Source: a virus (lineage: Duplodnaviria; Heunggongvirae; Uroviricota; Caudoviricetes). Taken from it: a stretch of DNA of 21,063 nucleotides. The stretch's first letter is position 1, and each line of letters starts with the position of its first letter. Below are positions 5,785 to 21,063 of the stretch, piece after piece. The stretch lies in the IMG/VR virus record IMGVR_UViG_2617270947_000018; one strand, written 5' to 3'. The notes beneath the pieces are model-generated. The model did not search any database and had not been told where the DNA came from. It saw only the letters and a list, made by a program, of their open reading frames with translations. A program made the translations under genes and the position numbers.

Positions 5785-5895
5785 TGGCAAAAATTCACGA
5801 GATCTTAGATAGTTTCGTACTGTATATATTTAGTTGTTACTTGCAGTTTGGTATTGTTTGCCATGGTTGTTTGTTAAGTGCTTTAAAGGTGAGGA

Positions 5896-7734
5896 ATGAG
5901 CGAGTTCGATGTTTTTTCTATTTCAGTTGATGATTTTAAAAAAAGTGAGTACGCCAGTATATTGTTACCACCAAGAAGCCATTCTTATTTTGAAATGGAA
6001 TCTTATTTTTTTCAGTTGTTGTTATTTTATAAGCAAAAAAAAGATGTGAGTTCTTGGAGGGTTTGCTATTTATTACGTTCGTTATTTAGTTTAAAATTTT
6101 CTAAGTCTGGTGATATTATCGACTTTGAGTCTAAAATCATTCTCTATCCTAAGCGAGGTTATAGACCTTCAGATTACAAGGATAATTATTTAACCATATT
6201 AACTTGTATTAAAGAAAATACTGATAACCCTTATATTATATCTAGGGTGTGTGATGTTTTATGGATAAATAACCGTAAGGATATAGATTCTGCTAATAAA
6301 GCAATAGAGTCATATGCTCTAATGATTAATGATGCTTGTGATACTTTGTTAGAAAAAAAGGAATCAGGTGACATCCATGTTTTTGATGTTGTTGACTGCT
6401 TGGATAGAGGTATTACAATATCGCGCATGCTTATTGGCAGGAAAAAACAACTGCAAGGAGGGATAGTTGACTCGACGTTAAGGCTATATCATATATTAAT
6501 AGATTCTAGTATATTTATCGGTGTTTTAAGAATTTCTGAAATTCTTTATAAGAATAATTTATTGTGCCCCTTACAATTGGCTAAGAATGCAGAAAAGATA
6601 GCTGATGAGCATTGTGGAGCTTCTTATTTTGATGCTGTGAAAAAATTGTTTTATTTTGCGTCTGAATTATATGTTAAAAATGATATGGAAGAGCAAGGAA
6701 GAAGGTGCAAAATGAAAGCGACAGAAATAACATTGGCTCAATTTGAACAGTCTTCATCTCCAACATTGAAGGCTCATTGGCTAAGAGTTGCTCTTGGGGA
6801 ATTTAGAGCGATTGGTGGAATGAGTGAAAGGATTAAAGAGATTAAAGAGGAATTAAATTCTATTCGAGATCAAATCAATGATGAAATGTATTCCTTTGCA
6901 ATACCAATGGATCTTAGTGATGTTATCGCTCAGAAAGAGCATATTTATAATCAATTAAATTTCTCAGAAATAATTAAAAAATTAATCTCTAGATTTAAGG
7001 TTGTAAGTGCCAGTGAGATTATGGAAAGAGCTCGCTCTGATGCTAAGAGATATTTTTTTGTTAATGTGAGTGATACGGTTTTTTATGATGACAGAGGACG
7101 CGTTGTGGCAAGGCAACCACCTTTAGATTCTGCTGGGGATATAAGTCTAGATGATGCCTGTGTAAATTATTTAAGAACTAGTAATATTGAGCATCAGTTT
7201 TATGTTTATGGTGAGTTTGAAGTTGTTAGGCAAAGAGTGTTGTCTAGGTATTCATTAAATGAGAATACATTTGACCCAATCTCACAACAAAGTCTATTTG
7301 TTCCTCCTGGGTATGCGGAAATATTTTCTTTAGGATTTCTTAAGCTTTGGCAGGGGGATTATGTGTCTGCCTGTTATTTGTTGTTGCCGCAGTTGGAGAA
7401 TTCAATTAGATGGATTTTAGAATTAAGAAGAAAAGAAACAACGAAAATAGATGTGTCACTTTTTGAGGAGGCTACTAGTCTATCTCAAATGCTTGCAAAT
7501 TATAAGAGTGAAATGGAAGGTATTTTTGGGAGTGATCATGTATTGACTATGGATTTATTGTTCAATATGAAAGGTGGTGCTGCAATTAGACACACGATGG
7601 CTCATGGCAGGTATACTGTAAATCATTGTTATCAACCAACTTCAGTTTTTGCCTGTGTCTTTATCTTTTATTTAACTTGTTTGCCTTTATTTAGTGTATG
7701 GGAAGATAAAGTTGAACCTTATCTGACTGATTAA
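5896..7734 (+). CDS. Hypothetical 612-aa protein; AT-rich cargo gene in the P2 tin/old slot; candidate anti-phage (abortive-infection-like) effector with HEPN-like R-x4-H motif and C-terminal hydrophobic tail
   Basis: Long uninterrupted ORF in a region of about 25% G+C (counted on sampled 60-nt lines) against about 55% in flanking phage genes. Strong SD (AAAGGTGAGGA) precedes ATG 5896. No Walker A (GxxxxGK[ST]) motif. Near the C-terminus, GGAAIRHTMAHG (R565-x4-H570, nt 7588-7605) is followed by a 19-aa hydrophobic stretch VFACVFIFYLTCLPLFSVW (nt 7645-7701). It lies between gene A and cos, where P2 carries tin/old. Confidence 0.75.
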   Translation: MSEFDVFSISVDDFKKSEYASILLPPRSHSYFEMESYFFQLLLFYKQKKDVSSWRVCYLLRSLFSLKFSKSGDIIDFESKIILYPKRGYRPSDYKDNYLTILTCIKENTDNPYIISRVCDVLWINNRKDIDSANKAIESYALMINDACDTLLEKKESGDIHVFDVVDCLDRGITISRMLIGRKKQLQGGIVDSTLRLYHILIDSSIFIGVLRISEILYKNNLLCPLQLAKNAEKIADEHCGASYFDAVKKLFYFASELYVKNDMEEQGRRCKMKATEITLAQFEQSSSPTLKAHWLRVALGEFRAIGGMSERIKEIKEELNSIRDQINDEMYSFAIPMDLSDVIAQKEHIYNQLNFSEIIKKLISRFKVVSASEIMERARSDAKRYFFVNVSDTVFYDDRGRVVARQPPLDSAGDISLDDACVNYLRTSNIEHQFYVYGEFEVVRQRVLSRYSLNENTFDPISQQSLFVPPGYAEIFSLGFLKLWQGDYVSACYLLLPQLENSIRWILELRRKETTKIDVSLFEEATSLSQMLANYKSEMEGIFGSDHVLTMDLLFNMKGGAAIRHTMAHGRYTVNHCYQPTSVFACVFIFYLTCLPLFSVWEDKVEPYLTD

Positions 7735-7895
7735 TGGAAGTTGATTTAGGTATTTTGGCATTTATCTTTCTGCGTGCAATATGTGCATGGTTTTGCATGT
7801 GCCGGAGTTGCATGTTCCGGCCGTGCGTCCGCCAGAACGGGCGTGGCTCAAAAGCGGTATTGCACCTGCATTAAAAACACCCCATGAAGCGGGCG

Positions 7896-7914
7896 GGCGA
7901 GGCGGGGAAAGCAC
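7896..7914. other. cos site: 19-nt P2 cohesive-end sequence GGCGAGGCGGGGAAAGCAC
   Basis: Exact 19-mer recalled as the P2 cohesive end, found in the GC-rich non-coding region between the cargo gene and portal gene Q, where cos sits in the prophage permutation. Confidence 0.7.
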
Positions 7915-8056
7915 TGCGCGCTGGCGGGGGGGCTGATTTTATTTTTTCAGCGTCTGAGCGCGTCGTGATGGCGTTTAGATTGTTAGCCGGGGCGTTGGTG
8001 TGTCTGCGGGCTGTTTTGTGCGGTGGTGAGCGTGTGAGGGCGTGATGGCGGGTTGT

Positions 8057-8078
8057 AAAAAAGCCGCCCGCAGGCGGC
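8057..8078 (-). terminator. Rho-independent terminator of the P-Q operon (minus strand)
   Basis: Read on the minus strand, 5 nt after the Q stop: GCCGCC-TGCG-GGCGGC (6-bp GC stem, 4-nt loop) followed by TTTTTT. Confidence 0.6.
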
Positions 8079-8083
8079 GATGT

Positions 8084-9118
8084 TCAGCCGTTGTCAGTGT
8101 CCAGTGAGTAGTTTTTAAAGCGGATGACCTCCTGACCGAGCCAGCCGTTTATCTCGCGGATCCTGTCCTGTAACGGGATAAGCTCATTGCGGACAAAGAC
8201 CTTTGCCACTTTCTCAATATCACCCAGCGACCCGACGTTCTCCGGCTTGCCCCCCATCAACTGAAAGGGGATGCGGTGCGCGTCCAGCAGGTCAGCGGCG
8301 CTGGCTTTTTTGATATTAAAAAAATCGTCCTTCGTTGCCACTTCACTGAGCGGGATAATTTTAATGCCGTCGGCTTTCCCCTGTGGGGCATAGAGAAACA
8401 GATTTTTAAAGTTATTGCGGCCTTTCGACTTAACCATGTTTTCGCGAAGCATTTCGATATCGTTGCGATCCTGCACGGCATCAGTGACGTACATGATGTA
8501 TCCGGCATGTGCGCCGTTTTCGTAATACTTGCGGCGGAACAGCGTGGCCGACTCATTCAGCCAGGCAGAGTTAAGGGCGCTGAGATATTCCGGCAGGCCG
8601 TACAGCTCCTGATTAATATCCGGCTCCAGCAGGTGAAACACGGAGCCGGGCGTGAAAGGTGTCGGCTCGTTGAAGGACGGCACCCACCAGTAAACATCCT
8701 CCTCCACCCCACGGCGGGTATATTTTGCCGGTGAGGTTTCCAGTCTGATGACCTTACCGGTAGTGCTGTAACGCTTTTCCAGAAACGCATTACCGAACAC
8801 CAGAAAATCCAGCACAAAGCGGCTGAAATCCTGCTGAGAAAGCCACGGATGCGGGATAAATGTCGAGGCCAGAATATTGCGTTTGACGTAAATTGGTGAG
8901 CTGTGATGCACGGCAGCACGCAGGCTTTTTGCCAGACCAGTAAAGCTGACCGGTGGCTCATACCATCTGCCGTTACTGATGCACTCGACGTAATCCAGAA
9001 TGTCACGGCGGTCGAGTACCGGCACCGGCTCACCAAAGGTGAATGCTTCCATTTTCGGGGCGCTGGCGGTCATTTTTTTTGCCGCAGGTTGCGGTGTTTT
9101 CCCTTTTTTCTTGCTCAT
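8084..9118 (-). CDS. Q: Portal protein (P2 gpQ)
   Basis: 344-aa minus-strand ORF, the same length and position as P2 Q; translation matches P2 Q as recalled. Its start overlaps the P stop (ATGA). Confidence 0.9.
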   Translation of the reverse strand: MSKKKGKTPQPAAKKMTASAPKMEAFTFGEPVPVLDRRDILDYVECISNGRWYEPPVSFTGLAKSLRAAVHHSSPIYVKRNILASTFIPHPWLSQQDFSRFVLDFLVFGNAFLEKRYSTTGKVIRLETSPAKYTRRGVEEDVYWWVPSFNEPTPFTPGSVFHLLEPDINQELYGLPEYLSALNSAWLNESATLFRRKYYENGAHAGYIMYVTDAVQDRNDIEMLRENMVKSKGRNNFKNLFLYAPQGKADGIKIIPLSEVATKDDFFNIKKASAADLLDAHRIPFQLMGGKPENVGSLGDIEKVAKVFVRNELIPLQDRIREINGWLGQEVIRFKNYSLDTDNG

Positions 9119-10890
9119 CAGTAAAACTCCAGAATGGTGGATGTCAGCGGGGTGCTGATACCGGCGGTGAGTGGCTCATTTAACAGGGCGTGCATGGTCG
9201 CCCAGGCGAGGTCGGCGTGGCTGGCTTCCTCGCTGCGGCTGGCCTCATAGGTGACACTGCGTCCGCTGCTGGTCATGGTCTTGCGGATAGCCATAAACGA
9301 GCTGGTGATGTCGGTGGCGCTGACGTCATATTCCAGACAGCCACGGCGGATAACGTCTTTGGCCTTGAGCACCATTGCGGTTTTCATTTCCGGCGTGTAG
9401 CGGATGTCGCGTGCGGCGGGATAGAACGAGCGCACGAGCTGGAACACGCCGACACCGAGGCCGGTGGCATCAATACCGATGTATTCGACGTTGTATTTCT
9501 CGGTGAGTTTGCGGATGGATTCAGCCTGAGTGGCAAAGTCCATGCCTTTCCACTGGTGACGCTCAAGTATTCTGAATTTGCCACCGGCCACCACCGGCGG
9601 TGCCAGTACCACGCATCCGGCGCTGTCGCCACGGTGTGACGGGTCGTAACCAATCCATACCGGGCGGGAGCCGAACGGATTCGCGGCAAACGGCGCATAG
9701 TCTTCCCATTCTTCCAGCGTGTCGACCATGCAGCGTTGCAGCTCCTCGAACGGGAACACCGACGCCTTGTCGTCAACAAATTCACACATGAACAGGTTTT
9801 TAAAATCGTCGGCGCTGTTTTCGCGTTTGAGCTGCTCAATGTCGAACAGCGTGCAGCCGCCTTTCAGGGCGTCCTCAATGGTGACAATCTGCCGCCACTG
9901 GCCGTCCGCACAGAGAAGTCCACCGGCAAGGGCGTTATGACTGACGTCGATTTCCACGCGTTCGGCGGCGCTGGCGCGTCCCCGGTTAAACAGTTCACCC
10001 GACCAGAACGGGTAGGCGTCGTGCGCCAGCGTGGACGGGGTGGAGAAATAGGTCGAACGCAGGTGACTCTGTGAGGCCATACCTGATGCCACCTTACGCA
10101 GTACCTGAAAATTCGGGATCCAGAAAATCTCGTCGACGTACAGGTCGCCGTTATGGCTCTGTGCGGTGTTGGAGTTGGTGCCGAGAAAAATCAGTTTTGC
10201 GCCGTTATTGCCCAGGACAATCGGGTCACCGGTCAGGTCAACGTCAACCAGCCGGGCAAAGGCGATGATGTATTCACGGAACACATACGCCTGCGTTTTA
10301 CTGGCCGACAGAAAAATCTGGTTATGGCCGGTTTTCAGGGCGCGCAGCAGCGCCTCGCGGGAAAAATAAAACGTTGCGCCAATCTGGCGGGATTTCAGGA
10401 TATCGCGGATGCGGTGCTCAAGCCCGGCGCGATACCAGTGCAACTGATAGTCGAAAGACTGCTCAAAGAAAATCTGCTCCAGCTTTTCGATGGCCTCGTC
10501 ACTGAAAAAATTCTTTTTCGGTTTGCGACGCCCGCCTTTGTTGCGGTTAGCGACGTTCGGATTAAGGTCTGCCTCGTTGCCGGTCTGACTGTAGCGGTTG
10601 ACCCGTGCCAGTCGTTCAATCTGGCGTCCTAGCAGGTCAATTTCCTTGAAGTCACCGCCGGTTTTCTGCGGTTTGATGATGAGCTGGGTCAGCCGCGCTT
10701 CCAGACTCATTTCGACACGGCTGATGGGGGCAACGCTGTCCCAGCCGTCGCGCTGTTTCCAGCTCTGCACCGTCGGGCGTTTCATCTGCAACATGGCGGC
10801 AATCTGCGGCACGGAAACCCCCTGCCAGTACAGCAGCGCCGCCTGACGACGCGGGTCGTGTAAAAGAGTGGTGTCTGTGGTGATGGTCAT
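9118..10890 (-). CDS. P: Terminase large subunit (ATPase/nuclease, P2 gpP)
   Basis: 590-aa ORF from ATG 10888-10890, starting MTITTDTTLLHDPRRQAALLYWQG as recalled for P2 P. The track's 600-aa version begins 10 codons upstream. Confidence 0.9.
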   Translation of the reverse strand: MTITTDTTLLHDPRRQAALLYWQGVSVPQIAAMLQMKRPTVQSWKQRDGWDSVAPISRVEMSLEARLTQLIIKPQKTGGDFKEIDLLGRQIERLARVNRYSQTGNEADLNPNVANRNKGGRRKPKKNFFSDEAIEKLEQIFFEQSFDYQLHWYRAGLEHRIRDILKSRQIGATFYFSREALLRALKTGHNQIFLSASKTQAYVFREYIIAFARLVDVDLTGDPIVLGNNGAKLIFLGTNSNTAQSHNGDLYVDEIFWIPNFQVLRKVASGMASQSHLRSTYFSTPSTLAHDAYPFWSGELFNRGRASAAERVEIDVSHNALAGGLLCADGQWRQIVTIEDALKGGCTLFDIEQLKRENSADDFKNLFMCEFVDDKASVFPFEELQRCMVDTLEEWEDYAPFAANPFGSRPVWIGYDPSHRGDSAGCVVLAPPVVAGGKFRILERHQWKGMDFATQAESIRKLTEKYNVEYIGIDATGLGVGVFQLVRSFYPAARDIRYTPEMKTAMVLKAKDVIRRGCLEYDVSATDITSSFMAIRKTMTSSGRSVTYEASRSEEASHADLAWATMHALLNEPLTAGISTPLTSTILEFY

Positions 10891-11063
10891 GAATACCTCG
10901 CCGTGATGAATACACGGCAAGGCTACTGAGTCGCGCCCCGCGATTCGCTAAGGTGCTGTTGTGTCAGTGATAAGCCATCCGGGACTGATGGCGGAGGATG
11001 CGTATCGTCGGGAAACTGATGCCGACATGTGACTCCTCTAATCACTATTCAGGACTCCTGACA
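10891..11063. promoter_or_regulatory. Divergent late-promoter region between P (leftward) and O (rightward)
   Basis: 173-bp intergenic region between divergently transcribed late operons, as in P2. I could not find an unambiguous Ogr-type dyad by eye, so only the region is called. Confidence 0.4.
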
Positions 11064-11918
11064 ATGGCAAAAAAAGTCTCAAAATTCTTTCGTATCGGCG
11101 TTGAGGGTGACACCTGTGACGGGCGTGTCATCAGTGCGCAGGATATTCAGGAAATGGCTGAAACCTTTGACCCGCGTGTCTACGGTTGCCGCATTAACCT
11201 GGAACATCTGCGCGGCATCCTGCCTGACGGTATTTTTAAACGTTATGGCGATGTGGTCGAACTGAAGGCCGAAAAGATTGACGACGATTCGGCGCTGAAA
11301 GGCAAATGGGCGCTGTTTGCGAAAATCACCCCGACCGATGACCTTATCGCGATGAACAAGGCCGCGCAGAAAGTCTACACCTCAATGGAAATTCAGCCGA
11401 ACTTTGCCAATACCGGCAAATGTTATCTGGTGGGGCTGGCCGTCACCGATGACCCGGCAAGCCTCGGCACGGAATACCTGGAATTCTGCCGCACGGCAAA
11501 ACACAACCCCCTGAACCGCTTCAAATTAAGCCCTGAAAACCTGATTTCAGTGGCAACGCCTGTTGAGCTGGAATTTGAAGACCTGCCTGAAACCGTGTTC
11601 ACCGCCCTGACCGAAAAGGTGAAATCCATTTTTGGCCGCAAACAGGCCAGCGATGACGCCCGTCTGAATGACGTGCATGAAGCGGTGACCGCTGTTGCTG
11701 AACATGTGCAGGAAAAACTGAGCGCCACTGAGCAGCGCCTCTCTGAGATGGAAACCGCCTTTTCCGCACTTAAGCAGGAGGTGACTGACAGGGCGGATGA
11801 AACCAGCCAGGCATTCACCCGCCTGAAAAACAGTCTCGACCACACCGAAAGTCTGACCCAGCAGCGCCGCAGCAAGGCCACCGGTGGTGGCGGTGACGCC
11901 CTGATGACGAACTGCTGA
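11064..11918 (+). CDS. O: Capsid scaffolding protein (P2 gpO)
   Basis: 284-aa ORF from ATG 11064 (MAKKVSKFFRIGVEGD...), matching P2 O as recalled; the track begins 22 codons upstream. Confidence 0.85.
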   Translation: MAKKVSKFFRIGVEGDTCDGRVISAQDIQEMAETFDPRVYGCRINLEHLRGILPDGIFKRYGDVVELKAEKIDDDSALKGKWALFAKITPTDDLIAMNKAAQKVYTSMEIQPNFANTGKCYLVGLAVTDDPASLGTEYLEFCRTAKHNPLNRFKLSPENLISVATPVELEFEDLPETVFTALTEKVKSIFGRKQASDDARLNDVHEAVTAVAEHVQEKLSATEQRLSEMETAFSALKQEVTDRADETSQAFTRLKNSLDHTESLTQQRRSKATGGGGDALMTNC

Positions 11919-11976
11919 CCGGCGTCAGTCAGTCCGGGAAAACCTTCACGATTAACCCTTAATTTCAGGAAAAACT

Positions 11977-13050
11977 ATGCGCCAGGAAACCCGCTTTAAA
12001 TTTAATGCTTACCTGTCCCGTGTTGCCGAACTGAACGGCATCGACGCCGGTGATGTGTCGAAAAAATTCACCGTTGAACCGTCGGTCACCCAGACCCTGA
12101 TGAACACCATGCAGGAGTCCTCTGACTTTCTGACCCGCATCAACATTGTGCCGGTCAGCGAAATGAAAGGGGAAAAAATTGGCATCGGTGTCACCGGCTC
12201 CATCGCCAGCACCACCGACACCGCCGGTGGCACCGAGCGTCAGCCGAAGGACTTCTCGAAGCTGGCGTCAAACAAGTACGAATGCGACCAGATTAACTTC
12301 GATTTTTATATCCGCTACAAAACGCTGGACCTGTGGGCGCGTTATCAGGATTTCCAGCTCCGTGTCCGTAACGCCATTATCAAACGCCAGTCCCTTGATT
12401 TCATCATGGCCGGTTTTAACGGCGTGAGGCGTGCCGAAACCTCTGACCGCAGCAGCAATCCGATGCTGCAGGATGTGGCGGTCGGCTGGCTGCAGAAATA
12501 CCGCAATGAAGCCCCGGCGCGCGTGATGAGCAAGGTCACTGACGAGGAAGGGCACACCACCTCTGAGGTCATCCGCGTGGGTAAGAGCGGTGATTATGCC
12601 AGCCTCGATGCACTGGTGATGGATGCGACCAACAACCTGATTGAGCCGTGGTATCAGGAAGACCCTGACCTTGTGGTGATTGTGGGGCGTCAGCTGCTGG
12701 CGGACAAATATTTCCCCATCGTCAACAAGGAGCAGGACAACAGCGAAATGCTGGCCGCTGACGTCATCATCAGCCAGAAACGCATCGGTAACCTGCCGGC
12801 GGTACGCGTCCCGTACTTCCCGGCGGATGCGATGCTCATCACGAAGCTGGAAAACCTGTCCATCTACTACATGGATGACAGCCATCGCCGCGTGATTGAG
12901 GAAAACCCGAAACTCGACCGAGTGGAGAACTACGAGTCAATGAACATTGATTACGTGGTGGAAGACTACGCCGCCGGTTGTCTGGTGGAAAAAATTAAGG
13001 TCGGTGATTTCTCCACACCGGCTAAGGCGACCGCAGAGCCGGGAGCGTAA
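11977..13050 (+). CDS. N: Major capsid protein (P2 gpN)
   Basis: 357-aa ORF, the same length and position as P2 N; translation matches as recalled. Confidence 0.9.
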   Translation: MRQETRFKFNAYLSRVAELNGIDAGDVSKKFTVEPSVTQTLMNTMQESSDFLTRINIVPVSEMKGEKIGIGVTGSIASTTDTAGGTERQPKDFSKLASNKYECDQINFDFYIRYKTLDLWARYQDFQLRVRNAIIKRQSLDFIMAGFNGVRRAETSDRSSNPMLQDVAVGWLQKYRNEAPARVMSKVTDEEGHTTSEVIRVGKSGDYASLDALVMDATNNLIEPWYQEDPDLVVIVGRQLLADKYFPIVNKEQDNSEMLAADVIISQKRIGNLPAVRVPYFPADAMLITKLENLSIYYMDDSHRRVIEENPKLDRVENYESMNIDYVVEDYAAGCLVEKIKVGDFSTPAKATAEPGA

Positions 13051-13053
13051 CCG

Positions 13054-13797
13054 ATGACGAGTCCCGCACAGCGCCACATGATGCGGGTCTCGGCAGCGAT
13101 GACCGCGCAGCGGGAAGCCGCCCCGCTGCGACATGCAACTGTCTATGAGCAGATGCTGGTTAAGCTCGCCGCAGACCAGCGCACACTGAAAGCGATTTAT
13201 TCAAAAGAGCTGAAGGCCGCGAAAAAACGCGAACTGCTGCCGTTCTGGTTGCCGTGGGTGAACGGCGTGCTGGAGCAGGGCAAAGGTGCACAGGATGACA
13301 TTCTGATGACGGTCATGCTGTGGCGTCTGGATACCGGCGATATTGCCGGTGCGCTGGAGATTGCCCGTTATGCCCTGAAGTACGGTCTGACCATGCCGGG
13401 TAAACACCGCCGTACCCCGCCGTACATGTTCACCGAGGAGGTAGCGCTTGCGGCCATGCGCGCTCACGCTGCCGGTGAGTCTGTGGATACCCGCCTGCTG
13501 ACGGAGACCCTTGAACTGACCGCCACGGCTGACATGCCTGATGAAGTGCGCGCAAAGCTGCACAAAATTACCGGTCTGTTTCTGCGTGACGGTGGTGATG
13601 CCGCCGGTGCGCTGGCGCACCTGCAACGTGCGACACAGCTCGACTGTCAGGCAGGCGTCAAAAAAGAGATTGAACGACTGGAGCGGGAACTGAAACCGAA
13701 GCCGGAGCCGCAGCCAAAAGCGGCCACCCGCGCCCCGCGTAAGACCCGGAGCGTGGCACCGGCAAAACGTGGACGCCCGAAAAAGAAAGCCAGTTAA
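13054..13797 (+). CDS. M: Terminase small subunit / endonuclease subunit (P2 gpM)
   Basis: 247-aa ORF following N, with a basic proline/lysine-rich C-terminal tail; matches P2 M in length and order. Confidence 0.85.
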   Translation: MTSPAQRHMMRVSAAMTAQREAAPLRHATVYEQMLVKLAADQRTLKAIYSKELKAAKKRELLPFWLPWVNGVLEQGKGAQDDILMTVMLWRLDTGDIAGALEIARYALKYGLTMPGKHRRTPPYMFTEEVALAAMRAHAAGESVDTRLLTETLELTATADMPDEVRAKLHKITGLFLRDGGDAAGALAHLQRATQLDCQAGVKKEIERLERELKPKPEPQPKAATRAPRKTRSVAPAKRGRPKKKAS

Positions 13798-13896
13798 CAA
13801 CCGAATGCGCCCCGCGCCAGGGCGGCACGCCGGTCAGTGAGGGTGAATCACCTGACACTGCACCGGCGTCCACCGCCCGACTTTTCAGAGGTAGTC

Positions 13897-14406
13897 ATGA
13901 TGACGCTGATTATTCCGCGAAAGGAGGCTCCCGTGTCCGGTGAGGGTACGGTGGTCATCCCGCAACCGGCAGGCGACGAGCCGGTGATTAAAAACACGTT
14001 CTTTTTCCCCGATATCGACCCGAAGCGCGTCCGGGAACGTATGCGCCTTGAGCAGACCGTCGCCCCCGCTCGTCTGCGTGAGGCCATCAAGTCAGGCATG
14101 GCGGAGACGAATGCGGAGCTGTACGAGTACCGCGAACAGAAAATTGCCGCCGGTTTTACGCGTCTGGCGGACGTCCCGGCGGACGATATCGACGGTGAAA
14201 GCATCAAAGTTTTTTACTACGAGCGCGCCGTGTGTGCGATGGCGACCGCGTCGCTTTATGAGCGTTATCGCGGCGTGGATGCCAGTGCGAAAGGCGACAA
14301 GAAGGCTGACAGCATTGACAGCACCATTGATGAACTGTGGCGGGATATGCGCTGGGCGGTGGCGCGTATCCAGGACAAGCCGCGCTGCATCGTGAGTCAA
14401 ATCTGA
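13897..14406 (+). CDS. L: Head completion/stabilisation protein (P2 gpL)
   Basis: 169-aa ORF from ATG 13897 (MMTLIIPRKE...); stop overlaps the X start. Confidence 0.85.
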   Translation: MMTLIIPRKEAPVSGEGTVVIPQPAGDEPVIKNTFFFPDIDPKRVRERMRLEQTVAPARLREAIKSGMAETNAELYEYREQKIAAGFTRLADVPADDIDGESIKVFYYERAVCAMATASLYERYRGVDASAKGDKKADSIDSTIDELWRDMRWAVARIQDKPRCIVSQI

Positions 14407-14609
14407 TGAAGACCTTTGCGCTACAGGGCGACACGCTCGACGCCATTTGTGTCCGGTATTACGGGCGCACTGAGGGCGTGGTTGAGACCGTGCTCGCCGC
14501 AAATCCGGGACTGGCTGAACTGGGTGCGGTGCTGCCACACGGCACCGCCGTCGAACTGCCCGACGTTCAGACCGCGCCCGTGGCTGAAACTGTCAATCTG
14601 TGGGAGTAA
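14406..14609 (+). CDS. X: Small tail protein X
   Basis: 67-aa ORF (MKTFALQGDTLDAICVRYYG...) translationally coupled to L (ATGA overlap); P2 gene order. Confidence 0.75.
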   Translation: MKTFALQGDTLDAICVRYYGRTEGVVETVLAANPGLAELGAVLPHGTAVELPDVQTAPVAETVNLWE

Positions 14610-14612
14610 CGC

Positions 14613-14894
14613 ATGACAGCAGAAGAAAAAAGCGTCCTGTCGCTTTTCATGATTGGGGTGCTGATTGTTGTCGGCAAGGTGCTTGCCGGTGGTGAACCCA
14701 TCACCCCGCGTCTGTTTATCGGGCGCATGTTGCTCGGTGGTTTTGTCTCGATGGTTGCCGGTGTTGTTCTGGTGCAGTTTCCTGACCTGTCACTGCCTGC
14801 GGTGTGCGGCATCGGCTCCATGCTGGGTATCGCCGGTTATCAGGTGATTGAGATTGCCATTCAGCGCCGCTTTAAGGGCAGGGGGAAACCGTAA
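14613..14894 (+). CDS. Y: Holin (P2 gpY)
   Basis: 93-aa ORF with hydrophobic transmembrane segments and a charged C-terminus (RRFKGRGKP); first gene of the lysis cassette. Confidence 0.8.
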   Translation: MTAEEKSVLSLFMIGVLIVVGKVLAGGEPITPRLFIGRMLLGGFVSMVAGVVLVQFPDLSLPAVCGIGSMLGIAGYQVIEIAIQRRFKGRGKP

Positions 14895-15391
14895 TGCCGG
14901 TAATTAACACGCATCAGAATATCGCCGCCTTTCTCGACATGCTGGCCGTGTCCGAAGGGACGGCGAACCATCCGCTGACGAAAAACCGGGGCTATGACGT
15001 GATAGTCACCGGACTGGATGGAAAGCCGGAAATCTTCACCGACTACAGTGACCACCCGTTCGCACATGGTCGACCGGCGAAGGTGTTTAACCGTCGCGGT
15101 GAAAAATCCACGGCCTCCGGTCGCTATCAGCAGCTTTACCTGTTCTGGCCGCATTACCGCAAACAGCTTGCCCTGCCGGATTTCAGTCCGTTGTCACAGG
15201 ACAGACTCGCCATTCAGTTGATCCGCGAACGCGGTGCGCTGGATGACATCCGGGCGGGACGCATTGAGCGCGCCATTTCACGCTGTCGCAATATCTGGGC
15301 GTCCCTGCCGGGTGCCGGTTACGGTCAGCGTGAGCATTCACTGGAAAAACTGGTCACCGTCTGGCGTACCGCCGGCGGCGTACCGGCTTAA
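14894..15391 (+). CDS. K: Endolysin (lysozyme-like, P2 gpK)
   Basis: 165-aa ORF directly after the holin; matches P2 K as recalled. Confidence 0.85.
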   Translation: MPVINTHQNIAAFLDMLAVSEGTANHPLTKNRGYDVIVTGLDGKPEIFTDYSDHPFAHGRPAKVFNRRGEKSTASGRYQQLYLFWPHYRKQLALPDFSPLSQDRLAIQLIRERGALDDIRAGRIERAISRCRNIWASLPGAGYGQREHSLEKLVTVWRTAGGVPA

Positions 15392-15405
15392 ACGGAGTAA
15401 ATACC

Positions 15406-15831
15406 ATGAAGAAATTATCCCTTTCACTGATGCTGAACGTGTCGCTGGCGCTGATGCTGGCACTGTCCCTGATTTACCCGCAGAGCGTGGCCGTCAATTT
15501 TGTCGCCGCCTGGGCGATTCTGGTGACGGTTATCTGTGTGGTTGCCGGTGGTGTCGGCGTGTATGCCACTGAGTATGTGCTGGAACGCTACGGGCGGGAG
15601 CTGCCGCCGGAATCGCTGGCCGTGAAGATTGTCACGGCGCTGTTTTTGCAGCCGGTGCCGTGGCGCAGGCGGTCAGTGGCTCTGGTAGTGATGGTGGCGA
15701 CGTTTATCTCGCTGGTCGCTGCCGGGTGGATTTTTACTGCGCTGATTTACCTCGTGGCGTCGCTGTTCTTCCGGCTGATACGTACGGCCTGCCGTCAGCG
15801 TTTTGAGGGGCGGGAACCATGTCAAAACTGA
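15406..15831 (+). CDS. lysA: Lysis timing membrane protein LysA
   Basis: 141-aa ORF with multiple hydrophobic helices, in the P2 lysA position. Confidence 0.75.
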   Translation: MKKLSLSLMLNVSLALMLALSLIYPQSVAVNFVAAWAILVTVICVVAGGVGVYATEYVLERYGRELPPESLAVKIVTALFLQPVPWRRRSVALVVMVATFISLVAAGWIFTALIYLVASLFFRLIRTACRQRFEGREPCQN

Positions 15832-16244
15832 TGATTGTGCTGGTTGTGTTGTTATCACTGGCGGTGGCGGGGCTGTTTCTGGCGAAGCATGAAAACGCCA
15901 GCCTGCGCGCCTCGCTGGACAGGGCAAACAATGTCGCCAGCGGGCAGCAGATGACCATCACCATGCTGAAAAAACAGTTTCATGTTGCGCTCACCAGGGC
16001 AGATAAAAACGAGCTGGCGCAGGTTGCACTGCGTCAGGAACTGGAAAACGCCGCGAAGCGTGAAGCACAGCGCGAGAAAACCATCACGAGGTTACTGAAT
16101 GAAAACGAAGATTTTCGCCGCTGGTACGGCGCTGACCTGCCTGATGCTGTGCGCCGGTTGCACCAGCGCCCGGCCTGCACTGACGCCAGTGATTGTCCAC
16201 AACGCCTGCCCGAAAGTGAGCCTTTGCCCGATGCCGGGCAGTGA
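15819..16244 (+). CDS. lysB: Inner-membrane spanin (Rz-like) LysB
   Basis: 141-aa ORF with an N-terminal transmembrane helix then a charged coiled-coil-like region; overlaps lysA by 13 nt. Confidence 0.75.
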   Translation: MSKLMIVLVVLLSLAVAGLFLAKHENASLRASLDRANNVASGQQMTITMLKKQFHVALTRADKNELAQVALRQELENAAKREAQREKTITRLLNENEDFRRWYGADLPDAVRRLHQRPACTDASDCPQRLPESEPLPDAGQ

Positions 16245-16389
16245 CCCGGAGACGAACGGTGATTTAAGTGCCGATATCCGGCAGCTTGAGAACGCGCTGG
16301 CACGCTGTGCCAGCCAGGTAAAAATGATTAAACACTGTCAGGACGAAAACGATGCTCAAACCCGACAGCCTGCGCAGGGCGCTGACTGA
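16099..16389 (+). CDS. lysC: Outer-membrane lipoprotein spanin (Rz1-like) LysC, nested out of frame in lysB
   Basis: 96-aa ORF starting inside lysB in another frame; N-terminal signal peptide with cysteines (MKTKIFAAGTALTCLMLCAGC) and a proline-rich mature region. Confidence 0.65.
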   Translation: MKTKIFAAGTALTCLMLCAGCTSARPALTPVIVHNACPKVSLCPMPGSDPETNGDLSADIRQLENALARCASQVKMIKHCQDENDAQTRQPAQGAD

Positions 16390-16819
16390 TGCCGTCACGG
16401 TGCTGAAAACCAGTCCCGAGATGCTGCGGATATTCGTGGATAACGGGAGTATTGCCTCCACACTGGCGACGTCGCTGTCATTTGAAAAGCGTTACACGCT
16501 CAATGTCATTGTGACCGACTTTACCGGTGATTTTGACCTGCTCATCGTGCCGGTGCTGGCGTGGCTGCGGGAAAATCAGCCCGACATCATGACCACTGAC
16601 GAAGGCCAGAAAAAGGGCTTCACGTTTTATGCAGACATCAACAATGACAGCAGCTTTGATATCAGCATCAGCCTGATGCTGACCGAGCGCACGCTGGTCA
16701 GTGAGGTGGACGGCGCGCTGCATGTGAAGAATATCCCGGAACCCACGCCGCCGGAGCCGGTCACCCGCCCGATGGAGCTTTATATCAATGGCGAACTGGT
16801 GAGCAAGTGGGATGAATGA
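16352..16819 (+). CDS. R: Tail completion protein R
   Basis: 155-aa ORF; P2 gene order and length. Confidence 0.8.
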   Translation: MLKPDSLRRALTDAVTVLKTSPEMLRIFVDNGSIASTLATSLSFEKRYTLNVIVTDFTGDFDLLIVPVLAWLRENQPDIMTTDEGQKKGFTFYADINNDSSFDISISLMLTERTLVSEVDGALHVKNIPEPTPPEPVTRPMELYINGELVSKWDE

Positions 16820-17264
16820 GTTTAAGCGTTTTGAAGACCGGCTGACCGGACTGATTGAGTCGCTGTCACCGTCAGGGCGTCGGCGACTGAGTGCCGAACT
16901 GGCGAAACGTCTGCGGCAGAGTCAGCAGCGTCGGGTGATGGCACAGAAAGCCCCGGACGGCACACCCTACGCGCCACGCCAGCAGCAGAGCGCCAGAAAA
17001 AAGACCGGTCGTGTTAAGCGAAAAATGTTTGCGAAACTTATCACCAGTCGTTTTTTGCATATCCGCGCCAGCCCTGAACAGGCATCAATGGAGTTTTACG
17101 GCGGGAAGTCACCGAAAATCGCCAGTGTGCATCAGTTTGGTCTGTCGGAAGAAAACCGGAAAGACGGTAAGAAAATTGATTATCCGGTGCGTCCTCTGCT
17201 CGGCTTTACCGGTGAGGATGTGCAGATGATTGAAGAGATTATCCTGGCTCACCTCGACCGTTAG
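16812..17264 (+). CDS. S: Tail completion protein S
   Basis: 150-aa ORF overlapping the R stop; P2 gene order and length. Confidence 0.8.
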   Translation: MNEFKRFEDRLTGLIESLSPSGRRRLSAELAKRLRQSQQRRVMAQKAPDGTPYAPRQQQSARKKTGRVKRKMFAKLITSRFLHIRASPEQASMEFYGGKSPKIASVHQFGLSEENRKDGKKIDYPVRPLLGFTGEDVQMIEEIILAHLDR

Positions 17265-17296
17265 TTGTGCCATTCCCGACACCTCATCGTTACATT

Positions 17297-17318
17297 GCCG
17301 CCGGTATGACCCGGCGGC
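17297..17318 (+). terminator. GC-rich hairpin between S and V (possible operon terminator or regulatory structure)
   Basis: GCCGCCGG-TATGAC-CCGGCGGC: perfect 8-bp stem and 6-nt loop, 13 nt upstream of the V start codon. The downstream U-tract is weak. Confidence 0.35.
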
Positions 17319-17330
17319 ATCCTTCCCGTT

Positions 17331-17966
17331 ATGAACACTCTCGCAAATATCCAGGAACTCGCGCGCGCACTGCGCAACATGATTCGCACCGGCCTTGTCG
17401 TCGAAACCAACCTTAAAGCCGGTCGCTGCCGTGTGCAGACCGGTGGCATGTGCACCGACTGGCTTCAGTGGCTGACCTGTCGTGCCGGTCGTTCGCGCAC
17501 ATGGTGGGCACCTTCCGTGGGGGAGCAGGTGCTGATTCTGGCCGTGGGCGGTGAACTTGACACGGCGTTTGTTCTGCCGGGGATTTATTCCGGCGATAAC
17601 CCCGCGCCGTCTGCGTCGGCGGATGCCCTGCATATCCGTTTCCCTGACGGGGCGGTGATTGAGTATGAACCCGAAACCAGTGCACTCACGGTAAGCGGAA
17701 TTAAAACGGCCAGCGTGACGGCTTCTGATTCTGTTACTGCCACGGTGCCGGTGGTCATGGTGAAAGCATCAACCCGCGTCACCCTGGACACACCGGAGGT
17801 GGTCTGCACCAACAGGCTGATTACCGGCACGCTGGAAGTGCAGAAGGGCGGGACGATGCGCGGCAACATTGAACACACCGGCGGTGAACTCTCATCAAAC
17901 GGTAAGGTACTGCATACCCATAAACACCCCGGCGACAGTGGCGGCACAACAGGGGGACCTCTATGA
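17331..17966 (+). CDS. V: Baseplate spike protein (P2 gpV)
   Basis: 211-aa ORF; first gene of the V-W-J-I baseplate operon, P2 length. Confidence 0.85.
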   Translation: MNTLANIQELARALRNMIRTGLVVETNLKAGRCRVQTGGMCTDWLQWLTCRAGRSRTWWAPSVGEQVLILAVGGELDTAFVLPGIYSGDNPAPSASADALHIRFPDGAVIEYEPETSALTVSGIKTASVTASDSVTATVPVVMVKASTRVTLDTPEVVCTNRLITGTLEVQKGGTMRGNIEHTGGELSSNGKVLHTHKHPGDSGGTTGGPL

Positions 17967-18310
17967 CAGCGCGTTATCTCGGAATGAATCGCAGTGATGG
18001 CCTGACTGTCACTGACCTTGAGCATATCAGCCAGAGTATCGGCGATATCCTGCGCACACCGGTCGGCTCACGGGTGATGCGTCGTGATTACGGCTCGTTG
18101 CTGGCGTCAATGATTGACCAGCCGCAGACCCCGGCGCTTGAGTTGCAGATTAAAGTCGCCTGTTACATGGCAGTGCTGAAATGGGAACCCCGCGTCACCC
18201 TGTCATCCGTCACCACGGCGCGCAGTTTTGACGGGCGAATGACGGTCACGTTAACCGGCCAGCACAACGACACCGGCCAGCCACTTTCGTTAACCATCCC
18301 TGTGAGTTGA
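17963..18310 (+). CDS. W: Baseplate wedge protein (gp25-like, P2 gpW)
   Basis: 115-aa ORF overlapping the V stop; P2 length and order. Confidence 0.85.
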   Translation: MTARYLGMNRSDGLTVTDLEHISQSIGDILRTPVGSRVMRRDYGSLLASMIDQPQTPALELQIKVACYMAVLKWEPRVTLSSVTTARSFDGRMTVTLTGQHNDTGQPLSLTIPVS

Positions 18311-18314
18311 AACC

Positions 18315-19223
18315 ATGCCGATTATCGACCTGAACCAGCTACCCGCACCGGATGTGGTCGAGGAGCTGGACTTTGAAACCATTCTTGCCGAACGCAAGGC
18401 GACACTGATTTCCCTTTACCCGGAAGACCAGCAGGAGGCGGTCGCCCGTACCCTGACACTGGAATCTGAGCCTCTCGTCAAACTGCTGGAGGAAAATGCT
18501 TATCGTGAGCTTATCTGGCGTCAGCGTGTGAATGAGGCTGCACGGGCGGTGATGCTGGCCTGTGCAGCCGGTAATGACCTTGATGTGATTGGTGCCAATT
18601 ACAACACCACACGCCTGATTATCCCCCCGGCAGATGATTCAACCATCCCGCCGACACCGGCAGTAATGGAATCTGACACCGATTATCGGCTGCGTATTCA
18701 GCAGGCGTTTGAGGGCTTAAGCGTCGCCGGGTCGGTGGGAGCCTATCAGTATCATGGTCGCAGTGCCGACGGGCGTGTCGCCGATATTTCTGTCACCAGT
18801 CCGTCTCCGGCCTGCGTCACCATCTCTGTGCTGTCACGTGAAAATAATGGTGTCGCATCCGAAGACCTGCTGGCCGTGGTGCGTAACGCCCTTAATGGCG
18901 AGGACGTCAGACCGGTGGCCGACCGCGTGACCGTGCAGTCTGCCGCCATTGTTGAATACCAGATAAACGCCACGCTTTACCTTTACCCTGGTCCCGAAAG
19001 CGAACCCATACGCGCTGCCGCCGTGAAAAAACTGGAAGCGTACATCACGGCACAGCACCGGCTGGGGCGTGACATCCGTCTGTCTGCCATTTATGCCGCT
19101 TTGCATGTGGAAGGCGTGCAGCGTGTTGAACTGGCTTCACCACTGGTCGACATCGTGCTCAACAGTACGCAGGCGTCTTTCTGTACCGAATACCGCGTCG
19201 TGACCGGAGGCTCGGATGAGTGA
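18315..19223 (+). CDS. J: Baseplate protein J
   Basis: 302-aa ORF; P2 length and order. Confidence 0.85.
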   Translation: MPIIDLNQLPAPDVVEELDFETILAERKATLISLYPEDQQEAVARTLTLESEPLVKLLEENAYRELIWRQRVNEAARAVMLACAAGNDLDVIGANYNTTRLIIPPADDSTIPPTPAVMESDTDYRLRIQQAFEGLSVAGSVGAYQYHGRSADGRVADISVTSPSPACVTISVLSRENNGVASEDLLAVVRNALNGEDVRPVADRVTVQSAAIVEYQINATLYLYPGPESEPIRAAAVKKLEAYITAQHRLGRDIRLSAIYAALHVEGVQRVELASPLVDIVLNSTQASFCTEYRVVTGGSDE

Positions 19224-19791
19224 TTTGCGCCTGCTGCCGACCGGCTCATCACCGCTTGAAGTCGCTGCTGCAAAAGCCTGTGCGGAAATTGAAAAAACGC
19301 CGGTCAGTATTCGTGAGCTGTGGAACCCGGACACCTGCCCGGCAAATCTGCTGCCGTGGCTGGCGTGGTCATTTTCGGTTGACCGCTGGGATGATAAGTG
19401 GGCGGAAGCGACAAAACGCGCTGTTATCCGCGATGCGTATTTCATTCACTGCCATAAGGGCACTATAGGCGCAATCCGGCGTGTGGTGGAGCCGCTCGGC
19501 TATCTGATTGAGGTGAGGGAGTGGTGGCAACTCAATGAGGAGCCGGGGACGTTCCGTATCGTTGTTGGCGTGCTTGAGCAGGGTATTACCGAGGAAATGT
19601 ATCAGGAGCTGGAGCGCCTCGTTGCTGATGCAAAACCGGCAAGCCGCCATCTGACGGGACTGGCTATCAGTTTAAGTACAACCGGCAACATTTTTGCCGG
19701 TGCGGGATGCTATCACGGCGACGCCCTGACAGTTTATCCCTACACCCCGGAGGCCATTATTGTCGGAGGGGATTATTTCCATAAGCGCTAA
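19216..19791 (+). CDS. I: Baseplate protein I, with 3' end running into the IS186-like terminus (C-terminus probably altered)
   Basis: ORF overlaps the J stop as in P2. It is 191 codons against 176 recalled for P2 I. The last codons CAT AAG CGC TAA (19780-19791) lie inside the insertion-sequence end. Confidence 0.7.
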   Translation: MSDLRLLPTGSSPLEVAAAKACAEIEKTPVSIRELWNPDTCPANLLPWLAWSFSVDRWDDKWAEATKRAVIRDAYFIHCHKGTIGAIRRVVEPLGYLIEVREWWQLNEEPGTFRIVVGVLEQGITEEMYQELERLVADAKPASRHLTGLAISLSTTGNIFAGAGCYHGDALTVYPYTPEAIIVGGDYFHKR

Positions 19792-21063
19792 CTTAAGGGT
19801 TGAACCATCTGAAGAATGCGACGCCTCGGTGCCTCGTTAAGACGATGCCTCGCGTTCTTCAATTGCGTTTTGTAGGCTGTCAGGGATACTGTCCCACGAA
19901 TGGCCACCTGTAAGCTCCAGATGACCATTTTTGTTATTCTCCACAACGAGTTAGTTCTTCTTTTCGGATCCGGCACTTCTGGGGGGGAAATCCAGCGATG
20001 GCTGGATTATGTCGTCAATTAAAAATGCGGCGAGTAGATTAGCAAATATCCACGCTTTCGCGAGTTCAGGTTCCTTTGCACGCAAAGCATCCAGGTGCAG
20101 CAAACTTTTGAGCCGCTTAAAAGCCAGTTCAATTTGCCATCGCAGACGGTAACAATCAGCCACTTGCTCTGCTGAATATTCATCTTCCGGTAATGATGTT
20201 AGCAATAGCACATGGCCCGCTGCTTCCAGCGTTTCCGCCTGAACTACTCGTCCTTTTCGACGATTCTCGCTGAGCAGTCGGGTTTTACTGATTAATGCTT
20301 TTTCGGGAGGAAGTGATACGGCAATGAGACGTGCCGGAAAGGGAGCTCCGGCTTTTTTATTACCTGAATTGCCTATCATTACAGTGGTTTCACCGTTCTT
20401 ACCGCAATCCAGCCCGCGCAGAAAACCCATCATGTCAAAGCGCATTCCTTCTGCAGTTAACCAGCGCAATCCTCGCCAGTGAACCCGGACGATATAATCA
20501 GCTTCTCCAAAAGCAAGTGAGCGGATACATTCGGGACGCGAACCGAATCCCCGGTCAGCAATGCGTATCTCGTCTGCCGTTTGCGCAAATCGGTCCAGCC
20601 GTTCAGCGTCTCTGCTGTCGGTTAGCTCAAAATCAGTGAACTGACAGGTATGAGGATCATATCCCATATGTAGTCGCCATTCAGCGCTGCCGCCCCCGGG
20701 CGCACTGATTGCTGTTCCATCGACAAGACGCAATCTCTTTCCGCTTGTACAACCCGTAACTGCGGCGCGTACAGCAAGTGTTTGTGCGGCAAGTATGCCA
20801 AACCAGTCGGCGGCATTCCGCAGCCGCTTCAGGAGAGCCACGTCAGATAATGTTGCAACGTCATGGAGCTGAGCCCATGCAGTGACTTCACGTAATGACA
20901 TCCCCCCGGGGCCGTAAGCCAGCCCCAGACGTAGCAGAGTTGCAGCATCACGAATTTCGCGGCGGCGGGTTAGAGCCCCGGCATTACGTGCCGAAGTATC
21001 CAGTTCTTCGGGCTTACCAATATGGGCCAGAATTGCTGACCAGTTATCGTGAGAGTAATTCAT
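19780..21063 (-). mobile_element. IS186-like insertion sequence (IS4 family), partial; extends beyond the window
   Basis: The terminal sequence CATAAGCGCTAACTTAAGGGTTG begins at about 19780 and is recalled as the IS186 inverted repeat. It contains the complete 370-aa transposase ORF. The implied length (about 171 bp, plus 1113 bp ORF, plus about 50 bp beyond the window) fits the roughly 1.34-kb IS186. Confidence 0.8.
19951..21063 (-). CDS. insL: IS186 transposase (DDE, IS4 family)
   Basis: 370-aa minus-strand ORF whose ATG is the last three bases of the window; the translation (MNYSHDNWSAILAHIGKPEELD...) matches the IS186 transposase as recalled. Confidence 0.88.
   Translation of the reverse strand: MNYSHDNWSAILAHIGKPEELDTSARNAGALTRRREIRDAATLLRLGLAYGPGGMSLREVTAWAQLHDVATLSDVALLKRLRNAADWFGILAAQTLAVRAAVTGCTSGKRLRLVDGTAISAPGGGSAEWRLHMGYDPHTCQFTDFELTDSRDAERLDRFAQTADEIRIADRGFGSRPECIRSLAFGEADYIVRVHWRGLRWLTAEGMRFDMMGFLRGLDCGKNGETTVMIGNSGNKKAGAPFPARLIAVSLPPEKALISKTRLLSENRRKGRVVQAETLEAAGHVLLLTSLPEDEYSAEQVADCYRLRWQIELAFKRLKSLLHLDALRAKEPELAKAWIFANLLAAFLIDDIIQPSLDFPPRSAGSEKKN

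What the first reader, a model, noticed from the sequence alone, without database searches (positions are those of the whole stretch)
19740..21063. IS186-like element inserted at the 3' end of baseplate gene I, truncating the late tail operon in this window
The late operon V-W-J-I normally continues into tail-fibre genes H and G. Here gene I reads straight into an insertion-sequence terminus at about 19780 (its last three codons and stop are IS sequence) and the rest of the window is the IS transposase. A G-run (GGAGGGG, 19764-19770) lies just upstream of the junction; IS186 is known to prefer G/C-rich targets. The I open frame is also about 15 codons longer than the 176 I recall for P2 I, so its C-terminus is either naturally divergent or altered by the insertion. 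The prophage may therefore be defective for tail-fibre expression through polarity or gene disruption.
Basis: partly seen in the sequence, partly recalled or inferred. Interest (0 to 1): 0.55.

Follow-up and report, generated by a model that had tools for sequence, protein, structure and literature searches.

The report
IS186 inserted in prophage tail gene
An ordinary, well-known E. coli jumping gene (IS186) has landed on its preferred target sequence at the very end of a P2-like prophage's baseplate gene I, clipping a conserved 15-residue tail and probably silencing the tail-fibre genes behind it; the sequence stops there only because the draft assembly broke inside the repeat.

Summary
Window 19780-21063, plus 47 nt further on the source contig, matches E. 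coli K-12 IS186A at 1332 of 1332 nt, and the InsL transposase is 370/370 identical. The 23-bp terminal repeat starts at 19780, and gene I ends in three IS-encoded codons (HKR) plus a stop.

The empty site in the nearest relative (strain E308, 99.4% identical over 19.8 kb) reads GGGG-ATTATTT-CCCG. That is one mismatch from the published IS186 target GGGG(N6/N7)CCCC.

Native gpI in this lineage has 203 aa, against 176 in P2. The insertion removes the last 15 residues (PASAIHLIDNLRVNA), which are conserved even in gpI proteins only 74-78% identical. They lie in the C-terminal region that a 2026 preprint proposes tethers the tail fibre.

The loss of the operon at the window end is an assembly artefact. 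The window is the end of draft contig JHDM01000083.1 (E. coli 1-110-08_S3_C2), which stops 8 nt short of the other IS end. I could not find the far junction, so a simple insertion with H and G following is likely but unproven.

A second, probably independent IS186 insertion sits 1 nt away in a prophage about 3% diverged, so the site is a recurrent target. No complete E. coli genome carries either allele. This is known biology and of low interest.

The parts
19216..19791 (+). Gene I (baseplate wedge/triplex protein gpI) fused to the IS end: 188 native codons, then HKR and a TAA stop from the IS. The native protein is 203 aa.
   Evidence: ORF list. Alignment to E308 gpI and P2 gpI. Pfam Tail_P2_I covers aa 7-143 with E=7e-56. 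TIGR01634 equivalog, E=3e-62.
19768..19779 (.). Left half of the IS186 target: GGGG (19768-19771), core ATTATTT (19772-19778) and one C (19779). The empty site in E308 reads GGGGATTATTTCCCGG. The predicted 10-bp target-site duplication, GGATTATTTC, is 19770-19779.
   Evidence: Target motif GGGG(N6/N7)CCCC from PMC5009759. Flanks of other IS186 copies show the same geometry.
19780..19802 (.). IS186 terminal inverted repeat (23 bp), CATAAGCGCTAACTTAAGGGTTG. It contains the TAA stop that now ends gene I (19789-19791).
   Evidence: it is the perfect reverse complement of the other K-12 IS186A end.
19780..21063 (-). IS186 body. The element continues 47 nt beyond the window to the contig end and is expected to end about 8 nt after that. 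In this window it is oriented with the transposase antisense to the phage late operon.
   Evidence: 1332/1332 nt identical to K-12 IS186A. Thousands of near-identical copies occur in E. coli genomes. The contig end was read.
19951..21063 (-). insL, the IS186 DDE transposase (370 aa, IS4 family).
   Evidence: 370/370 aa identical to K-12 InsL1. Pfam DDE_Tnp_1, E=1.6e-26. NF033592 IS4-family transposase scores above its cut-off.
20333..20358 (+). Terminator-like hairpin with a T6 run inside the IS, on the same strand as the phage late operon: GCCGGAAAGGGAGCTCCGGC TTTTTT. It is a candidate cause of transcriptional polarity on H and G.
   Evidence: Consensus scans. Folding gives -13.3 kcal/mol, z = -1.9. 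This is a pattern match only; function is inferred.
17331..19223 (+). Intact upstream genes V, W and J of the same late operon (V-W-J-I-H-G in P2).
   Evidence: ORFs, gene calls and Pfam, E308 annotation and the P2 operon annotation.

Best explanation
A copy of the E. coli insertion sequence IS186 transposed into a near-consensus target, GGGG-ATTATTT-CCCG, 47 nt before the stop codon of baseplate gene I. IS186 belongs to the IS4 family, is about 1.34 kb long, has 23-bp inverted ends and encodes the InsL DDE transposase. The host is an otherwise intact P2-like prophage integrated next to cpxP in E. coli 1-110-08_S3_C2.

Shown: the IS identity, the left junction, the target motif, and replacement of the last 15 gpI residues by HKR plus a stop.

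Inferred:
1. The insertion is simple, with a 10-bp duplication GGATTATTTC, and the rest of I, then H, G and the F operon follow on another contig. The window ends only because the short-read assembly broke inside the repeat.
2. The insertion separates H and G from their only known promoter (P_V) by 1.34 kb of untranslated antisense IS. That stretch contains a terminator-like hairpin and no outward promoter, so H and G expression should be strongly reduced.
3. The clipped gpI lacks a conserved C-terminal segment of the region proposed to tether the fibre.

The prophage would therefore probably make fibre-deficient, non-infectious particles.
For: IS identity: 1332/1332 nt and 370/370 aa match K-12 IS186A/InsL1, and the family models agree.

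Junction: homology to 1,496 genomes with uninterrupted J-I ends at 19780. Strain E308 is 99.4% identical over 1-19780 and shows the empty site and a 203-aa gpI.

Target: the published motif is GGGG(N6/N7)CCCC, with 7 of 59 sites off by 1-2 bases (PMC5009759). The empty site is one mismatch off. It is one of only four loci within one mismatch in 19.85 kb of prophage.

Other IS186 copies have GGGG followed by 8-9 nt before CATAAG, and 10-11 bp duplications.

The junction is real: independent Logan assemblies carry it.

Assembly break: the contig ends at ...CCCTTAAGTTAG, 8 nt short of the IS end.

Recurrence: a second insertion lies 1 nt away in a prophage about 3% diverged.

Operon structure: P2 annotation gives V, W, J, I, H and G as one transcript from P_V, while the F operon has its own promoter.

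Polarity: a terminator-like hairpin lies on the operon strand, and no sigma-70-like site was found in a full IS copy.

gpI tail: PASAIHLIDNLRVNA is conserved in homologues 74-78% identical overall. A P2 cryo-EM preprint places fibre attachment on the gpI C-terminal region from R153 (10.64898/2026.09.14.750843). The gpI C-terminal module changes together with the H type.

H in a sibling: an H protein identical to E308's carries nr accession EYE08730.1, in the same accession series as the sibling isolates.
Against: The right-hand junction, the target-site duplication and the resumption of I and H were never seen. Six collection scans found nothing, and three H-protein look-ups showed only uninterrupted I-H contexts or an empty site.

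The EYE08730.1 link to a sibling genome rests only on accession proximity.

Polarity and loss of fibre attachment are inferences; no expression or phenotype data exist.

The truncated gpI still contains everything that aligns to the complete, functional 176-aa P2 gpI and the whole Pfam domain, so it may retain core baseplate function.

The hairpin is only a consensus match (z = -1.9).
Confidence: 0.8

Rival explanations
1. The IS marks a deletion or rearrangement end point. After insertion, IS186-mediated adjacent deletion or recombination between IS186 copies removed or relocated H, G and the rest of the prophage, leaving a truncated remnant.
For: The far junction was not found anywhere. The contig ends in the IS, so nothing in hand shows what lies beyond it. 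IS-associated deletions and IS-IS recombination are documented in E. coli (PMC5009759).
Against: In that study recombination was about ten times rarer than insertion (4.5e-5 against 3.5e-4 per genome per generation). The left flank has exactly the geometry of a primary insertion at a near-consensus target. Everything upstream is intact. An H protein identical to E308's carries an accession in the same series as the sibling isolates.
Confidence: 0.13
2. The insertion is real but phenotypically silent. The truncated gpI works, and H and G are still expressed by read-through or an unrecognised promoter, so the prophage remains fully functional.
For: The truncated protein keeps every residue that aligns to the complete 176-aa P2 gpI and the whole Tail_P2_I domain. 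The hairpin is a weak consensus match. The allele persists in four sequencing runs, including one much later run, SRR25477456.
Against: The lost 15 residues are conserved across gpI homologues that differ at a quarter of their positions. They lie in the proposed fibre-tether region. The stop codon is followed by 1.3 kb of untranslated antisense IS carrying a hairpin-T6 and no promoter-like site. The I-H start/stop overlap (ATGA in E308) is lost. Persistence of a prophage allele in a lysogen does not require phage function.
Confidence: 0.15
3. The junction is an assembly chimera that joins a prophage contig to an unrelated IS186 copy.
For: IS elements are classic sites of misassembly, and the source is a short-read draft.
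Against: The same junction appears in independent Logan assemblies from SRR1186483 (three samples) and SRR25477456. The break falls exactly on an IS186 target motif at the correct distance from GGGG. A sister event exists 1 nt away in other samples.
Confidence: 0.02

Closest known systems
IS186 (IS186A/B/C of E. coli K-12; IS186/IS421 group, IS4 family)
   Same: The 1332 nt available are identical to IS186A and the InsL transposase is identical. The 23-bp inverted repeat, the GGGG(N6/7)CCCC-type target and the flank geometry all match.
   Different: Nothing differs in the element itself. Only the insertion site is particular. The target has one mismatch (CCCG), and the left junction leaves one C rather than two before CATAAG. 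This implies a 10-bp rather than an 11-bp duplication, as at K-12 IS186A.
IS186 insertion hot spots (lon promoter in E. coli B; fimA and menC in mutation-accumulation lines)
   Same: Insertions recur at one short G4-N6/7-C4-like site, here at least twice at positions 1 nt apart.
   Different: The site lies in a mobile prophage gene rather than a chromosomal locus. It is an imperfect motif and the events are rare: 0 of 5,426 complete genomes carry one, although 1,496 carry the J-I region.
Bacteriophage P2 gene I / gpI (baseplate triplex with gpJ; fibre attachment)
   Same: Gene order V-W-J-I is the same. The protein is 88% identical over aa 1-145 and hits the Tail_P2_I and TIGR01634 equivalog models.
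   Different: This lineage's gpI is 203 aa, not 176. Its C-terminal module differs and is paired with a 427-aa H that has a Mu/P1-like invertible segment, rather than P2's 669-aa H.

Membership tests
IS186 (IS4 family insertion sequence) | Near-identity of the DNA to the reference IS186 | tested here: met
   1332/1332 nt identical to K-12 IS186A over the part present in the window and contig.
IS186 (IS4 family insertion sequence) | Single ORF encoding the 370-aa InsL DDE transposase | tested here: met
   370/370 aa identical to InsL1. Pfam DDE_Tnp_1 and NF033592 IS4-family transposase score above their cut-offs.
IS186 (IS4 family insertion sequence) | 23-bp perfect terminal inverted repeats at both ends | tested here: inconclusive
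   The left repeat is complete at 19780-19802. The right repeat is only partly present (15 of 23 nt), because the contig ends 8 nt early.
IS186 (IS4 family insertion sequence) | Insertion at a 5'-GGGG(N6/N7)CCCC-3' target | tested here: met
   The empty site in E308 is GGGG-ATTATTT-CCCG, one mismatch off. The source paper reports 7 of 59 sites off by 1-2 bases.
IS186 (IS4 family insertion sequence) | Target-site duplication flanking both ends (10-11 bp as counted here; a 6-7 bp core in PMC5009759) | not testable with these tools
   The right junction lies on another contig. Six collection scans and three H look-ups failed to find it.
P2 gpI (Tail_P2_I / TIGR01634) baseplate protein | Full-length match to the family model | tested here: met
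   Pfam PF09684 matches profile positions 1-139 of 139 at aa 7-143, E=7e-56. The TIGR01634 equivalog scores 208 bits against a cut-off of 30.
P2 gpI (Tail_P2_I / TIGR01634) baseplate protein | Position directly after baseplate gene J in the V-W-J-I-H-G late operon | tested here: met
   V, W, J and I are contiguous with overlapping starts and stops in the window. The order is the same in P2 and E308.
P2 gpI (Tail_P2_I / TIGR01634) baseplate protein | Intact native C-terminus (the proposed fibre tether) | tested here: not met
   The last 15 of 203 residues are replaced by HKR. The lost segment is conserved in distant homologues.

The most novel reading that the evidence does not exclude
The G4-N7-C3G site at the I-H boundary of this widespread P2-like prophage lineage may be a recurrent IS186 hot spot. 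Occupying it would uncouple fibre attachment and fibre expression from the rest of the virion. That would be a repeatable, possibly host-selected, route to disarming the prophage while keeping its immunity and defence cargo. It would also provide a natural truncation series (188+HKR and 189 aa) for testing the proposed gpI C-terminal fibre tether.
Probability: 0.12. Interest if true: 0.35.

Novelty: already known. Interest (0 to 1): 0.12.

Why it matters
The finding matters mainly for annotation and interpretation.

- The prophage should be flagged as IS-disrupted at gene I and probably defective for tail fibres.
- The apparent loss of H and G is an assembly artefact and should not be read as a deletion.
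- The case shows that the published IS186 target motif predicts where a prophage gets hit. At least two separate insertions occurred at the same 15-bp site.
- The two natural truncations of the conserved gpI C-terminus could be used to test the recently proposed gpI-gpH tether in P2-like phages.

None of this changes what is known about IS186 or P2.

Tried and rejected
**Search for the far IS junction.**
- Exact-pattern scans for the left and the predicted right junction all returned zero: GTDB species representatives, IMG/VR and JGI metagenomes.
- No complete E. coli genome has either junction.
- I searched for the H protein of relative E308 and looked up three hits. P0018 gave only contexts with an intact 203-aa I upstream. 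P0112 and P0009 also gave uninterrupted or empty sites.
- The look-up reads only the 24 blocks of the collection with the longest contigs, so the wanted draft contig could not be reached.
It worked through the listing of cluster members.

**Invertase site hypothesis.** I considered that contig breaks near the G-run might reflect the phage invertase acting at the end of I. I rejected this: the inverted crossover-like repeats lie inside H and next to the invertase (L003 8324-8355 and 10063-10094).

**Mosaic boundary hypothesis.** I considered a third mosaic boundary at GGGGA. I rejected this too: complete genomes fall into only two classes, full coverage or a break at about 19650 for the P2 type.

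**Literature.** The primary paper on the lon hot spot (PMC95536) is not held. A search for the strain name found nothing useful.

**Not attempted.** I did not predict a gpI-gpH complex, because the tool takes single chains and only sequences from the window.

Full report
**1. What is in the sequence**

The + strand reads ...GTCGGAGGGGATTATTTC|CATAAGCGCTAACTTAAGGGTTGAACC..., with the bar between 19779 and 19780. A 191-codon ORF at 19216-19791 runs across that point. A 370-codon ORF on the minus strand fills 19951-21063 and starts exactly at the window end.

The DNA from 19779/19780 onward, joined to the 47 nt that follow on the source contig, matches E. coli K-12 IS186A at 1332 of 1332 nt. The transposase is 370/370 identical to InsL1. 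Pfam DDE_Tnp_1 and the NCBIfam IS4-family model agree. About half of 5,426 complete E. coli genomes carry near-identical copies.

The 23-bp terminal repeat is at 19780-19802. The TAA that now ends gene I (19789-19791) lies inside it.

**2. Where the phage ends and what was hit**

The window up to 19780 is a P2-like prophage carrying int, C, cox, B, A, a cargo gene, Q, P, O, N, M, L, X, Y, K, lysABC, R, S, V, W, J and I. All of these frames are open.

It is 99.4% identical in one piece to a prophage of E. coli E308, which is integrated beside cpxP. Matches in 1,496 complete genomes run up to 19780 and none crosses into the IS.

In E308 the site reads GGAGGGGATTATTTCCCGGCCTCGGCC, and gene I continues for 47 more nt to a 203-aa product whose stop overlaps the H start (ATGA). 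The protein here therefore has 188 native residues followed by HKR. The native tail PASAIHLIDNLRVNA is gone.

P2's own gpI is 176 aa and ends ...TVYPG. The lineage naturally has a 27-aa extension, and the IS removed the last 15 residues of it.

**3. Target choice**

Lee et al. (PMC5009759) defined the IS186 target as 5'-GGGG(N6/N7)CCCC-3'. Insertions occurred in either orientation and some sites were hit repeatedly. Seven of 59 sites were off by one or two bases.

The empty site here is GGGG-ATTATTT-CCCG, one mismatch off. In the reconstructed 19.85 kb of prophage there is no perfect site, and only four loci lie within one mismatch.

I read the flanks of other IS186 copies in sufD, in a CRISPR array and at K-12 IS186A. 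All have GGGG followed by 8-9 nt before CATAAG, and 10-11 bp duplications. By the K-12 geometry the duplication here should be GGATTATTTC (19770-19779). The far junction should then read ...GCGCTTATG-GGATTATTTC-CCGGCC.

**4. Why the window stops**

An exact-protein look-up of the 191-aa fusion found the source: contig JHDM01000083.1 of GCA_000601175.1, 62,934 bp long. That contig ends at ...CCCTTAAGTTAG, 8 nt short of the IS end.

Two Logan assemblies carry the same junction and stop about 30 nt into the IS, as expected for k = 31: SRR1186483 (three samples share the contig) and SRR25477456. GenBank names attached to the J and I proteins identify the isolates as E. coli 1-110-08_S3_C1, C2 and C3. 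The window matches S3_C2.

The junction is therefore real and inherited. The disappearance of H and G is an assembly break in a repeat.

**5. The far side**

I could not see it. Pattern scans of three collections found nothing. Look-ups of H proteins returned only uninterrupted I-H contexts or an empty site.

The only hint comes from an accession number. An H protein identical to E308's 427-aa H carries nr accession EYE08730.1. That falls in the same series as the sibling isolates' I and J proteins, EYE10120, EYE16792/3 and EYE19091.

I rate a simple insertion at roughly 0.8 and an IS-mediated deletion or rearrangement at roughly 0.13.

**6. Likely consequences (inferred)**

P2's annotation makes V, W, J, I, H and G one transcript from P_V, with a separate promoter for the F operon. 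Any polarity should therefore hit H and G only.

The IS places 1.34 kb of untranslated, antisense-to-insL sequence after the new stop codon. It carries a hairpin plus T6 on the operon strand at 20333-20358. A scan of a complete IS186 copy in this orientation found no sigma-70-like site.

The lost 15 residues are conserved in gpI homologues that are only 74-78% identical overall: identical in KE40, and with one substitution in CFIAFB20190157. A 2026 cryo-EM preprint on P2 places fibre attachment on the flexible gpI C-terminal region, from R153 (10.64898/2026.09.14.750843).

The C-terminal part of gpI also changes together with the fibre type. The 176-aa form goes with P2-type H of 669-751 aa. 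The 203-aa form goes with a 427-aa H that carries an invertible segment.

Against a severe defect, the truncated protein keeps the whole Tail_P2_I domain (aa 7-143) and everything that aligns to complete P2 gpI.

**7. Recurrence**

If IS186 had cut one base further right, gene I would end ...DYFP-stop. That 189-aa protein exists in the collection as P0151 / WP_270671233.1.

Four of its contigs show ...ATTATTTCC|CATAAGCGC... with the IS in the same orientation, and one of them carries the 370-aa transposase. Their prophage differs from the window by about 3%, whereas SRR25477456 differs by 1 in 1,963 nt.

The site has therefore probably been hit at least twice. A one-base slip in the C-run after a single event, followed by recombination, is the less likely alternative. 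Neither allele occurs in the complete-genome set.

**8. Verdict**

The element is a fully known IS at a predictable target in a common prophage. Novelty is 'already known' and interest is low.

Noticed in passing
window 5896-7734 (+): A 612-aa cargo gene lies between replication gene A and portal gene Q, the slot where P2 carries old and tin. It hits Pfam DUF7380 and matches the PADLOC candidate anti-phage defence family PDC-S39 over its full length (E=4e-73). NCBIfam gives no match.
   Followed up: partly
L029, L033, L035, L037 (ENA and Logan contigs); protein P0151 / WP_270671233.1: A second IS186 insertion sits at the same gene I target, 1 nt to the right (..ATTATTTCC|CATAAG; gpI ends DYFP-stop) and in the same orientation. 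Its prophage is about 3% diverged from the window's, which suggests a recurrent target.
   Followed up: yes
L021-L028 and L030-L038 (draft and metagenome contigs): Many independent contigs end inside the last ~100 nt of gene I: partial proteins of 171, 172, 179 and 185 aa, and contigs ending at ..GGAGGGG(A) or ..TTTCCCG(G). The ends are the same whatever the assembler's k. I attribute this to co-resident P2-like prophages that diverge at polymorphic sites, but did not resolve it.
   Followed up: partly
L003 7510-10743 (E. coli E308 prophage, downstream of I): This lineage has a Mu/P1-like invertible tail-fibre segment: H (427 aa), G, an inverted G' and an H' C-terminal fragment, then a resolvase-family invertase. 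Crossover-like inverted repeats lie at 8324-8355 and 10063-10094. PGAP annotates H as two partial pseudogenes although the 427-aa frame is open.
   Followed up: partly
window about 19500-19780; L007 12193-12723; L020 22216-22746: Gene I is mosaic. The first ~145 residues are 88% identical to P2 gpI, and the remainder is 48% identical and 27 aa longer. The C-terminal type tracks the H type.
   Followed up: partly
L001 1501-2860 (E. coli ATCC 8739, NC_010468.1 about 1,017,084-1,018,440): An IS186 copy splits a CRISPR array. Its target, GGGG-ATGAGTT-CCCC, spans a spacer end and the start of the repeat, and it has an 11-bp duplication GGATGAGTTCC.
   Followed up: no
L013 1-1407 (GCA_023520215.1) and L016 7182-8395 (GCA_013985095.1): Related prophages differ in cargo and damage. 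One has a PycTM gene plus a cyclase-like gene just upstream of V, in the P2 orf30 slot. Another has an IS3-family (rve) transposase between the invertase and the sheath gene.
   Followed up: no
window 1-19780: GGGG(N6/7)CCCC-like sites look scarce in the prophage. There are 0 exact and 7 one-mismatch hits at four loci, against means of 0.9 and 19.8 in mononucleotide shuffles. The control is crude and I did not pursue it.
   Followed up: no
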